From the NCBI GenBank assembly GCA_965113315.1, contig OZ220365.1: a stretch of 64,000 nucleotides of DNA. One strand, written 5' to 3'. Origin of the DNA: Podarcis vaucheri. Lineage: Eukaryota. Below are positions 19,804-35,447 of this stretch, one piece after another; position 1 is the first letter of the stretch, and each line of letters opens with the position of its first letter. The position numbers and the translations under genes are program-made. The notes under the pieces were generated by a model. The model had not been told where the DNA came from. It worked only from the letters and a program-made list of their open reading frames with translations, and did no database searches.

Positions 19804-20882
19804 TTTTAAAAAAGGAAAGAAAATCTTATCTGTCATAATTGAACATCCTGAGAAGATTTCAGAGTTTTGTACTGTTTCTCTAATGGAAATATAAACGTCT
19901 GGCTAGCATTAGGGAGCTTGGCCAAATTTATTTGCCAGGGATTTGTTTTTGTTTTATATTTTGGGTGCATGGTGTGTGAACGAGGGAAGGAATCATTCAC
20001 TTGTTTCCATTTTCTGGCACCTGAAGACATCTTGCTCTGAGAAATGACACTGTAAGAGCAGAAAAGGAACAATTACGTGAAGGAAATGTTTGTGTGTGTC
20101 TGTTGTCTGATGGGGGGAAGGGGAATGAAGAAGGAACAGACGCAGCTCTAGTCCAAGTGATATGTCACGCAAACAGAATGTGAGCTTTCCCCTTTCTGTT
20201 GTTGATAAAACAATAAGGTTTGTCCTCGAGTTGAGCTTTGATTCGAGATATAAAAGCAAATTTAAACACAAGGCTTTGTGAAAACTGTAAGTTTGGCAAT
20301 GGTTTCTGATGATAAGAAGGCTTATCTTGTAAATGCTTTAATTAATTTGGGGTGTGTAACATCCAGGGTTGGTCTGCTGGGATTCCTTGGAAACCTTAAG
20401 CACATCGTTTTGTAAACAAAGCTATACACCCATAAATCACTCAGTTTTTCTTTTTCTTTTTTTCATTATTTAAGGGTTTTTATGGAAAAACAAATGCAAT
20501 CTGCAAATCTCTAAAATTGAGAGAGAGAGAGAAATGTTGCTCAAGAATGAGACCTCTGCCCCTACAGTCTATTCACACAGTTGTTCACAACTCATTAGTG
20601 TAACAGGTTTATGTTGCTGTTGGCATTTTTCTTAAAATGTCAGTTTTTTATGATTTGGTGAACTCTCTCTGAAACAGCCAAACCTCCAGTTAACCATGTT
20701 TCCATGTTTTATTGCTATGTTGCCTATCAATTTCTCTTCAGGACGCGCCCCCATGCCATACTACTAAAGGCATTAAACAACAACAACAACAGAGAGTATA
20801 TACATTATGAATTGTATGGATTGTTTTGACATTTGGTTGCAAAGCTTCATCAGAGAAAATGCAAATTTTGAAGGATAGTTGT

Positions 20883-21666
20883 TGTCAGGGGTTCAGGGAC
20901 AGAGGCACAGGTGAGGGGGGAGACGGAGAGCGATGGGGAAGAAACCCAGGACAGTGAGGAAGAGGATGACAATGACTTGAGGTCTTCCATGAGTCTCTCA
21001 AGTGAATCGGAGGATTCCCAGAAGGGGGCGCCCCTGGTCAAGCCAAGGGGGGGTCAAAGGGGGGACTTGCCAGGAGCAGGGAAGCAGCAGGGAAACCCCG
21101 AGTGGGAGTGGGAGATCGGGGTCGGCTTCCCAGGAGGAACGGAGTGAGAAGGGTGGAGTTCCCAGTGTGACACACGGAGCAGAGCAGGAAGGAGACAGGG
21201 GAAGGAGATCGGGGCAGGACGTCCTGCCGGAAGGGGCGGAAAGTAGTACAGGGAGTAGTGTAGCTGTCAAAAGGAAGGTCAGGGGTAGCGAACGCGCGCC
21301 AAGTTCAAATGTGGAGGCGCGCGGAAATGCAGAGAGCCCGGAGGAGGAGCCTGGCCCCAAAGCACGAAGGAGGGGGGAGCAGGCATCTGAGGGATCCGCG
21401 TCAGGGGAAAGCAGGAGGGAAGGAACCCAGGGGGGCAGAAAGACCCTGCGGAAAAGAAAGGACAGGAAGAGGTGGTCTAGCACAAGCCTCTTAAACTGGT
21501 GTAGAGGCGGGACCGATTCAGAGGGGACTTCAAATGTCTAGGCTAAGAGACGCGGGGCTGCGCGCCTCGGTTGTGGAACCAATAATGAACTGCAATAAAC
21601 ATCCTTGTATATAAGAAGAGCCTGACATTGGTCTTTTGTGAGCTGAGACCTGAGGCAGCCCTGACA
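20883..21666 (+). mobile_element. Solo LTR (Gypsy-like), 784 bp
   Basis: TGTCAGGG...CCCTGACA inverted termini; 5-bp TSD GTTGT (20878-20882, 21667-21671); AATAAA at 21594-21599; CpG-rich. Confidence 0.93.
20884..21541 (+). other. LTR-internal reading frame, 218 aa if one G is removed from the G7 run at 21047-21053
   Basis: Frame VRGSGTEAQVRGETESDGEE...GAPLVKPR joins frame GVKGGTCQEQ...RKRKDRKRWSSTSLLNWCRGGTDSEGTSNV* by a single homopolymer indel. No start codon at the LTR edge; coding status unproven. Confidence 0.45.
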
Positions 21667-21941
21667 GTTGTATTTCAGCTCATGCATTGTTTCAGGAAGT
21701 GTGAGTTAGGTAGGTAGGTTCACCCTAAAATGAGAACTATATCTACTTGCTCCCTTGTTTGCAGTGAGCATCAGTGACACAGCTTTCAACCTTCCCTCCA
21801 TGCATCCATTAAATATACATATGCTCAGCAGTTGAAAAAGATTGAAAATGGTAACCATGGAAGGGTGGAGGGGAGTCTAAGGATACAGGGGATCCTAAAT
21901 GATGATAATGTTTGAATTTAAATGTGCAGTAAAACTTAAAA

Positions 21942-34732: not shown

Positions 34733-34925
34733 AGTATTACCTTAGCAGCATATTGAGGCCTTAGAATGACTGGCCAGCTATAAGATGACACAGAACATGG
34801 TGCGATGACAAACATGGGTTTGCTGATCCTATTGAGTCTTCAGTACTCATCTGAATGTGTGTAGTTAAGGAAACACGTGGTACAACATCACAATAGGTAA
34901 AGGTAAAGGACCCCTGGACGGTTAA

Positions 34926-35359
34926 TGTAATAACTGTAGGGGTTACTCGTGCGCAAGTTGGTGCCACTCCTAGCTAGTTTGCCTTGTTAAACCTTTTCTA
35001 TCTGGACAGCCCTACACTTTGTGGCTGTTCAGTCACTGGCAGAATCCATCAGTGGGTGTTTCTTAAACCTTTTCCAGCATAAAAGTTGTTTGACTCCAAG
35101 TCTCCTCCTACTCTCCCTGCGTGGAAGTCTTCTGCGCAGGGAGGGCGTGGGTAGCGGAGGACCCGTGCTCTCCTCGCTGATCTCCGGCGAGGAGTCCTGG
35201 AGCCCCGTCGCCGATTCCCCCATCTGCCCCCCTTTATCCCTGGTGTTATGCTGATTTCCTTCCCCAGCTGGTGAGCCGCCTCTCCCCCTGCTGGGCCCTT
35301 CTCCAGCATCGTTTGAGAGCCTCGCCTCCGCCTCTGGCTCTGATGTCAGTTCCCTGACA
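34926..35359 (-). mobile_element. Solo LTR (Gypsy-like), 434 bp, nested in SINE
   Basis: Minus strand TGTCAGGG...TTACA; 5-bp TSD GTTAA (34921-34925, 35360-35364); CpG-rich. Confidence 0.92.
35029..35358 (-). other. LTR-internal open reading frame, 109 aa, open from LTR base 2
   Basis: VRELTSEPEAEARLSNDAGEGPSRGRGGSPAGEGNQHNTRDKGGQMGESATG...PSLRRRLPRRESRRRLGVKQLLCWKRFKKHPLMDSASD* with no internal stop. Coding status unproven. Confidence 0.45.
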
Positions 35360-35447
35360 GTTAAGTCCAGTCAAACGCAACTATGGGGTTGCGGCGCTCA
35401 TCTTGCTTTCAGGCTGAGGAAGCCGGCGTTTTTCCACAGACAGCTTT

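What the first reader, a model, noticed from the sequence alone, without database searches (positions are those of the whole stretch)
20884..21541. Two different solo LTRs share a protein-like reading frame that opens at LTR base 2 (candidate U3-encoded accessory domain)
Seen: the 784-bp LTR (+) and the 434-bp LTR at 34926-35359 (-) differ in length and show no obvious internal DNA similarity. Both read V-R from base 2 (T|GTC AGG) and stay open across most of the LTR: 218 aa after removing one G from the G7 run at 21047-21053, and 109 aa with no correction. Both peptides run from an acidic Ser/Gly-rich disordered region to a dense basic cluster (RKTLRKRKDRKR; RRRLPRRESRRR), then LLxW, then DS shortly before the stop. 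Established: some retroviruses encode proteins overlapping U3 (HIV nef, MMTV sag). Inference: in full-length elements an internal ORF (pol tail or separate ORF) reads through the polypurine tract into the 3' LTR and adds an NLS or RNA-binding-like tail. Caveats: purine-rich, T-poor strands lack stops by chance, the shared V-R follows from the shared LTR terminus, and LLxW may reflect a TATA-like DNA motif.
Basis: partly seen in the sequence, partly recalled or inferred. Interest (0 to 1): 0.75.

Follow-up and report, generated by a model that had tools for sequence, protein, structure and literature searches.

The report
Integrase tail encoded inside retrotransposon LTR
These two leftover ends of lizard-type jumping genes spell out the last 109 to 218 amino acids of the element's integrase, a tail kept by natural selection that likely helps the element enter the nucleus, while a motif just upstream matches those that bind the HIV cofactor LEDGF and would steer new insertions into active genes.

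Summary
The reading frame is real. Both stretches are solo LTRs (5-bp target duplications) of two high-copy Ty3/gypsy chromovirus families. So this is the integrase C-terminal tail, not a separate accessory gene; solo LTRs carry it passively. It is open in 35 of 46 (A) and 45 of 58 (B) copies; dN/dS between subfamilies is 0.22 and 0.37, about 1 in the other sense frames. LLxW codons vary synonymously, so it is no TATA artefact. Two more families share the layout. Precedent: plant CRM chromoviruses. Unexpected: just upstream of the LTR, 73 of 83 tails carry a helix-acidic-S/E-x-F-x-G-F motif matching LEDGF/HRP2-binding motifs; I found no report of this in a retrotransposon. Binding, nuclear import and targeting are inferred, not shown. 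The scan earlier noted an LTR-borne gene in another genome's gypsy element. New variant of a known kind; interest 0.62.

The parts
20883..21666 (+). Solo LTR of chromovirus family A (784 bp)
   Evidence: TG..CA ends, 5-bp duplication; 1876 first-look candidates, 40 scored at 98-100%; same LTR flanks full-length gag-pol-chromodomain elements
20878..20882 (+). Left target-site duplication of LTR-A (GTTGT; right copy 21667-21671)
20884..21541 (+). LTR-encoded end of pol (218 codons in open sister copies). Broken in this copy at the G run 21047-21053, early stop 21145-21147; family stop TAG 21539-21541
21437..21520 (+). Terminal motif of the family-A tail: basic cluster, LLNW, then DS
   Evidence: kept in subfamilies whose LTRs align at only about 70-74%
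21594..21614 (+). AATAAA (21594-21599) and a TATA-like TATATAA (21608-21614) in the non-coding last 125 bp of LTR-A
   Evidence: AATAAA at the same distance from the stop in 5 of 5 A-group copies, the TATA-like word in 2 of 5
34926..35359 (-). Solo LTR of chromovirus family B (434 bp), duplication TTAAC at 35360-35364 and 34921-34925, inserted in the end of another interspersed repeat
   Evidence: 4042 first-look candidates, 40 scored at 93-100%
35029..35358 (-). LTR-encoded end of pol, 109 codons, open as it lies; stop TGA 35031-35029
35074..35136 (-). Terminal motif of the family-B tail: arginine cluster and LLCW
   Evidence: dN/dS 0.17 over the last 39 columns against 0.53 before them

Best explanation
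Both LTRs belong to Ty3/gypsy chromoviruses whose pol frame runs through the polypurine tract into the 3' LTR, so the frame seen here is the selected C-terminal tail of the integrase, which likely serves nuclear import and chromatin tethering of the integration complex. SHOWN: pol is continuous with the LTR frame in natural full-length copies; the frame covers 76-84% of the LTR and is under purifying selection in its own sense frame. KNOWN MECHANISM (own knowledge): the 3' U3 is copied to both ends at reverse transcription and LTR-LTR recombination leaves solo LTRs, so 5' and solo LTRs carry a headless copy that is not translated as such. INFERRED: the tail is disordered and works through short motifs. 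The LTR-coded basic cluster with its aromatic motif would act as nuclear localisation signal or chromatin contact (about 0.5). One or two helix-acidic-FxGF motifs right behind the chromodomain, upstream of the LTR, would bind the integrase-binding domain of LEDGF/p75 or HRP2 and tether integration to H3K36-methylated gene bodies (about 0.6), taking over from a chromodomain that lacks aromatic-cage residues.
For: Domains: gag, protease, RT, RNase H, integrase, SH3_Tf2-1, Chromo. Stop-free pol-to-LTR frames in L193 (1561 aa stop to stop, LTRs 100% identical), L184 (1374), L185 (1304), L183 (1386, shorter internal part), L187 (1212). B junctions: 19 of 28 in frame, 15 of 28 open from chromodomain into the LTR. 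Public Podarcis muralis gene models end in the same tail. dN/dS median 0.22 (A, 8 of 10 pairs with dS>0.15) and 0.37 (B, 65 of 66), other sense frames 0.94-1.31 with 1-13 stops per copy; 7 of 7 bootstrapped pairs have 95% intervals below 1 in frame and none in the other frames. DNA-only alignment: third positions differ most (A 0.36 against 0.19; B 0.27 against 0.17-0.18); private against shared N/S in B 91/24 against 18/16, p=0.004; all gaps in the 9 closer B pairs are multiples of 3. Families C and E have the same junction and a basic-aromatic-basic-(S/T)D end, as does a divergent unnamed protein, P0013. FxGF: 73 of 83 distinct tails match S/E-x-F-x-G-F within 32 aa of the chromodomain end, 1.3% of shuffles; dN/dS 0.11-0.14 there, like the chromodomain; same 8-residue F-to-F spacing as the JPO2 M1 and PogZ motifs in fetched LEDGF fusion constructs; the A'' tail shares the 7-mer STFHGFD with the DPF3a motif peptide printed in PMC7337902. 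The host has two LEDGF-family loci.
Against: Family A: only 9 of 32 distinct 3' ends are in frame between chromodomain and LTR (7 of 18 with a whole LTR); all 31 frameshifting gaps lie in G runs within 45 nt of the LTR. Fourteen of the 32 are duplicates of one truncated insertion and still fall in all three frame classes, which points to slippage after insertion or assembly error, but this is not proven. The private-against-shared test is not significant in A (68/30 against 17/14, p=0.19). The antisense frame that shares the wobble position also has low dN/dS (0.33, 0.48). The terminal motif is loose: A-C profile comparison not significant, A motif region dN/dS 0.49 on 2 pairs, absent as LLxW in E. 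No protein, localisation or insertion-site data. The copies used for dN/dS were chosen for an open frame and aligned as protein.
Confidence: 0.75

Rival explanations
1. The LTR frame is translated pol tail but only an inert spacer: selection removes stops and radical changes because the protein must end somewhere, and the basic/aromatic end has no partner.
For: Length varies from 76 to 218 aa among families; dN/dS is 0.53 in the B stretch before the motif; no Pfam, PDB or Atlas match to the LTR part.
Against: An inert tail could be cut by an early stop at no cost, yet none is fixed in any subfamily seen, and the most conserved part of B is its very end (dN/dS 0.17); four families keep a basic-aromatic end.
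Confidence: 0.12
2. The frame is also, or mainly, made as a separate accessory protein (nef/sag-like) from a spliced or internally started RNA, perhaps from the in-frame ATG in the family-A polypurine tract.
For: A-group junctions read M-D-V-R; many A copies are out of frame just upstream yet keep the LTR frame open; reads pile up over the LTR in a relative.
Against: B, most C and E have no ATG there; no joints listed in 4 of 4 RNA runs (low depth); LTR reads are expected from thousands of solo copies and lie on both strands; continuity with pol explains the selection.
Confidence: 0.07
3. The G runs before the family-A LTR act as a switch, so that elements make integrase with or without the LTR-coded tail.
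For: 31 of 31 frameshifting gaps fall in 45 of 602 nt.
Against: Duplicates of one dead insertion vary just as much; in B 7 of 15 such gaps are in that zone and 19 of 28 copies are in frame.
Confidence: 0.04
4. The constraint is on an antisense protein or on DNA/RNA signals of the LTR, and the sense frame is a shadow.
For: The wobble-sharing antisense frame is long and has dN/dS 0.33 and 0.48.
Against: It has stops in 2 of 5 A and 8 of 12 B copies while the sense frame has none; its dN/dS is higher; changes silent only in sense are about twice as frequent as those silent only in antisense (pairs not independent); the sense frame joins pol.
Confidence: 0.02

Closest known systems
Plant CRM group A chromoviruses (CR motif / putative targeting domain; PMC3059260, passages read)
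   Same: [quoted passage not shown]
   Different: CRM group A has the CR motif in place of a chromodomain and sits at centromeres. Here a chromodomain is kept, followed by FxGF motifs and a long acidic tail; host is a reptile by its named relatives; solo LTRs are spread over many contigs; no sequence likeness to the CR motif was tested or seen.
Vertebrate/fungal Sushi-type chromoviruses (LTR ends TGTYANR..CNTNACA; PMC3601003, passages and section 12 read)
   Same: Domain order ending in SH3 and chromodomain; LTR starts TGTCAGG; A ends CCTGACA; AATAAA near the 3' end in A, C, E.
   Different: That paper describes a T-rich U3 and its text has no 'ORF' or 'open reading frame'; here the LTR is G/A-rich and mostly coding, and B lacks AATAAA.
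TND-interacting / IBD-binding motifs of JPO2, PogZ, MLL1, DPF3a (PMC9987994, PMC7337902, PMC10854676, passages read; constructs P0171-P0180)
   Same: Helical Phe, acidic or Ser/Thr-rich linker, S/E-x-F-x-G-F; two motifs in tandem in families B and C, as in JPO2.
   Different: Known carriers are host proteins (PogZ is transposase-derived by its name). HIV integrase binds the same domain through a prearranged site, not this motif. Binding is untested here, and the motif lies upstream of the LTR.
Ty1 integrase C-terminal tail (bipartite NLS with targeting domain; PMC7459421, abstract and section headings seen)
   Same: Integrase tail that combines nuclear-import and host-tether motifs: the working model here.
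   Different: Copia element, different partner (Pol III subunit AC40); no overlap with the LTR that I know of (recalled).
HIV nef, MMTV sag (recalled, no call)
   Same: Coding sequence overlapping U3.
   Different: Separate genes on their own RNAs; here the frame is part of pol.

Membership tests
Ty3/gypsy chromovirus | LTRs with TG..CA ends and short target duplication | tested here: met
Ty3/gypsy chromovirus | gag, then PR-RT-RNase H-integrase order | tested here: met
   Pfam on L061 and L062
Ty3/gypsy chromovirus | Chromodomain at the integrase C-terminus | tested here: met
   PF00385 E=4.7e-07 in B (over cut-off), 0.032 in A (under cut-off); HP1 chromodomains are the best PDB hits; first and third cage aromatics are missing in B against HP1 in that alignment (cage positions recalled)
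Ty3/gypsy chromovirus | RT phylogeny with named chromoviruses (Sushi clade) | not tested
   no named reference RT was fetched
CRM group A | [quoted passage not shown] | tested here: met
CRM group A | CR motif in place of the chromodomain | tested here: not met
   a chromodomain is present; works like CRM in layout, not a member
U3-encoded accessory gene (nef/sag type) | Own start codon and own RNA, separate from pol | tested here: not met
   frame continuous with pol; no joints in low-depth RNA
U3-encoded accessory gene (nef/sag type) | Lies in U3 | tested here: inconclusive
   upstream of AATAAA in A, C, E; no start or end mapped
TIM / IBD-binding motif | S/E-x-F-x-G-F consensus | tested here: met
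   73 of 83 tails; consensus from PMC7337902
TIM / IBD-binding motif | Upstream hydrophobic (helical) Phe and acidic or Ser/Thr linker | tested here: met
   invariant Phe 8 residues before the motif in 15 of 15 aligned tails, 7 in one; helicity itself not measured
TIM / IBD-binding motif | Binds a TND/IBD domain | not testable with these tools
   needs a binding assay
Classical NLS | Basic cluster sufficient for nuclear import | not testable with these tools
   cluster present in 4 of 4 families; import not assayed

The most novel reading that the evidence does not exclude
These reptile chromoviruses have evolved, independently of lentiviruses, a way to hijack LEDGF/HRP2: they mimic the host's FxGF motif in the integrase tail to aim integration at active gene bodies, and they have turned most of their LTR into coding sequence for the rest of that tail, so thousands of solo LTRs are fossil copies of an integrase targeting and import module.
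Probability: 0.55. Interest if true: 0.82.

Novelty: new variant of a known kind. Interest (0 to 1): 0.62.

Why it matters
How vertebrate chromoviruses choose insertion sites is, to my knowledge, unknown. This gives two short, testable motifs. An LTR retrotransposon using a host-type FxGF motif would be a second, structurally different route to the tether that HIV uses, and a natural test of whether a 20-residue motif is enough to aim an integrase. The overlap shows that 76-84% of an LTR can be coding, which matters for LTR annotation and for dating insertions by LTR divergence under a neutral clock. The overlap alone is less new: it is described for plant CRM elements, and public Podarcis gene models already contain the tail without comment.

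Tried and rejected
Complex prediction of the lizard LEDGF integrase-binding domain (P0160, 400-497) with the family-A FxGF peptide: no answer (score 0.01, alignments not used, peptides untested by the tool); not evidence either way. RNA: no RNA holder listed; four raw RNA runs of the same species label as the best RNA-like holders gave 602-880 laid reads each, mostly under 90% alike, on both strands, with no joints and no clean start or end. Search for the tail outside lacertids: one profile search gave 1722 hits, only about 9 extending beyond the chromodomain, named ones all Podarcis, three unnamed; P0013 against longer proteins gave nothing; metagenome contigs nothing; Atlas no usable hit for the tail. 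The range beyond lacertids is therefore open. IQ-TREE codon models ran but I could not read omega from the output, so NG86 was used. The junction-pattern sample selects one G-run length and query L061 is itself out of frame, so neither gives an unbiased in-frame rate; one search repeated it with another query. The many hits to the end of P0019 are another repeat, not this tail. Likenesses of the terminal motif to PIP-box, CENP-C, Ku-binding and Rev arginine-rich motifs were considered from memory only; key residues are missing or not conserved across families, and none is claimed. Literature: 8 searches (listings only) showed no paper on an FxGF motif in a retrotransposon integrase or on LTR-overlapping pol in reptiles; 'transpos' does not occur in PMC9987994. 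Subscription papers, Repbase entries and supplements were not seen and may describe either.

Full report
OBSERVATION. LTR-A (20883-21666, +) and LTR-B (34926-35359, -) have TG..CA ends and 5-bp target duplications. Both read V-R from base 2. B is open for 109 codons. The window copy of A stops after 87 codons; it is out of register with open sister copies from the G run at 21047-21053 on, and the rest of the peptide lies in the next frame. Taken alone the frames are marginal against dinucleotide shuffles (p 0.014-0.19). Both LTRs are high-copy (1876 and 4042 first-look candidates, 40 scored each). As they lie, 21 of 29 other A copies read 218 codons and 24 of 30 B loci 108-109; with no frame filter 35 of 46 and 45 of 58 distinct copies reach the terminal motif.

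WHAT IT IS. Two-LTR elements (L061, L062) encode gag, protease, RT, RNase H, integrase, SH3_Tf2-1 and a chromodomain: Ty3/gypsy chromoviruses. The closest named relatives are Podarcis proteins, so the host is probably a lacertid lizard (inference). A-group and B-group pol are 52% identical over 1270 aa. The 3' LTR follows a polypurine tract whose last bases and the LTR's first T form a codon, giving G-x-D|V-R. In B, 19 of 28 junctions are in frame with the chromodomain and 15 of 28 are open into the LTR (2 of 30 loci had no LTR). Of 12 stretches fetched, five read pol without a stop to the family stop inside the 3' LTR with the terminal motif intact: L193 (A'' subfamily, LTRs 100% identical), L183, L184, L185, L187; L190 does so with an altered middle; the others break earlier. 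UniRef models from Podarcis muralis end in the same tail (P0003, P0005 whole, P0004 shorter). Two more families share the layout: C (18 of 30 loci reach a W-x-C-W end, 12 of 30 read open from the internal tail into the LTR) and E (11 of 15 loci open 104-122 codons, one open from pol). The coding part is 658 of 783 bp in A and 331 of 434 in B.

SELECTION. Between subfamilies (LTR identity down to about 70%) NG86 dN/dS has median 0.22 in A (8 of 10 pairs with dS>0.15) and 0.37 in B (65 of 66); the other two sense frames give 1.31/1.18 and 0.94/0.96 and hold 1-13 stops per copy. Seven of seven pairs have bootstrap intervals below 1 in frame, among them a gap-free pair (0.31, 0.14-0.62); no off-frame interval excludes 1 from below. 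These copies were chosen as open and aligned as protein; as a check, DNA-only alignment shows most change at third positions, and unfiltered copies give private against shared N/S of 91/24 against 18/16 in B (p=0.004) but 68/30 against 17/14 in A (p=0.19). Private indels in the frame are mostly not multiples of 3 (7 of 9 in each family), gaps in the 9 closer B pairs all are; DNA gaps in the most distant pairs are unreliable. LLxW codons vary synonymously, which rules out a TATA-like cause. The wobble-sharing antisense frame also scores low (0.33, 0.48) but has stops in 2 of 5 and 8 of 12 copies.

AGAINST. Only 9 of 32 distinct family-A 3' ends are in frame from chromodomain to LTR (one more locus had no junction), and all 31 frameshifting gaps are in G runs within 45 of 602 nt. 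Fourteen ends are duplicates of one truncated insertion yet cover all three frame classes, so slippage after insertion or assembly error is the simplest cause. The A-B likeness is limited to 20 columns of the terminal motif with low probability; B-C is clear (E=8e-07), A-C is not significant. RNA from a relative gave weak, two-stranded cover and fixed neither U3/R/U5 nor splicing.

THE REST OF THE TAIL. Directly behind the chromodomain, outside the LTR, 73 of 83 distinct tails match S/E-x-F-x-G-F (1.3% of shuffles) and 49 of 83 have two FxGF (many of the 83 are close kin, the independent units are four families here plus P0013). The stretch is as conserved as the chromodomain (dN/dS 0.11-0.14 against 0.14). 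PMC9987994 (passages) defines TND-interacting motifs as helix, acidic linker and optional FxGF, says all known LEDGF and HRP2 partners have the FxGF, and names only lentiviral integrases under viral mimicry. PMC7337902 (passages) gives the consensus S/EXFXGF and a DPF3a peptide that shares STFHGFD with the A'' tail. The JPO2 and PogZ motifs in fetched constructs have the same or nearly the same spacing. The genome holds two LEDGF-family loci. Among 150 profile hits, 8 have an acidic FxGF, 7 of them in this clade and one spurious in RT, so it is not a general chromovirus trait.

HOW IT LIKELY WORKS. Shown: one pol frame ends inside the 3' LTR and is selected. From established retroelement biology (own knowledge): the genomic RNA ends in U3-R, so the overlap is translated with pol; reverse transcription copies U3 to both ends; recombination leaves solo LTRs with a headless, passive frame, which may decay as the window's A copy has. 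Inferred: after processing, integrase carries a long disordered tail; the FxGF motifs would bind LEDGF/HRP2 on H3K36-methylated chromatin, and the LTR-coded basic/aromatic end would bring the complex into the nucleus or onto chromatin, much as the Ty1 tail joins an NLS and a targeting domain (PMC7459421, abstract and headings). The chromodomain lacks cage aromatics against HP1 (positions recalled), like the type II domains described in PMC3059260, which fits a shift of targeting to the tail.

COMPARISON AND NOVELTY. [quoted passage not shown] It is not a nef- or sag-type gene. Eight literature searches (listings) showed no report of this overlap in reptiles or of an FxGF motif in a retrotransposon integrase; closed papers, Repbase and supplements were not seen. 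Earlier notes of this scan describe an LTR-borne gene in another genome's gypsy element and AT-hook tails behind fungal chromodomains (unchecked, not used as support).

VERDICT. Real coding sequence, confidence about 0.95; functions inferred, about 0.5-0.6. New variant of a known kind. Interest 0.62; 0.82 if LEDGF/HRP2 tethering is confirmed.

Noticed in passing
L061-L291, internal tail just behind the chromodomain (e.g. L064:1690-1797 +, L095:1685-1792 -): One (A, E) or two (B, C) helix-acidic-FxGF motifs of the LEDGF/HRP2-binding type; 73 of 83 tails strict, 49 of 83 with two.
   Followed up: partly
Family-A 3' ends, last 45 nt before the LTR (L063-L092, L262-L291): G runs of the polypurine zone hold all 31 frameshifting gaps; they vary even among duplicates of one insertion.
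   Followed up: partly
L069-L090, L269 (many near contig ends): At least 14 copies of one family-A insertion with a truncated LTR and the same following sequence, probably a subtelomeric duplication.
   Followed up: partly
G000 contig C41 (41 Mb): A large share of the internal-region hits lie on this one contig, as expected of a non-recombining sex chromosome (inference).
   Followed up: no
window 34880-35440: LTR-B is inserted in the 3' end of a repeat like families D9/D12 (Sauria SINE by recall).
   Followed up: no
L195-L224 and L247-L261: Two further chromovirus families (C, LTR about 372-384 bp; E, about 425 bp) with the same pol-into-LTR layout.
   Followed up: yes
LTR-B group, after the stop: No AATAAA or ATTAAA in 12 of 12 B-group copies; how these RNAs end is unexplained. 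In A and E a TATA-like word follows AATAAA rather than preceding it.
   Followed up: no
L061:80-754 (-), L194:161-1126 (+): Long antisense frames over the LTR; probably the shadow of the sense frame.
   Followed up: yes
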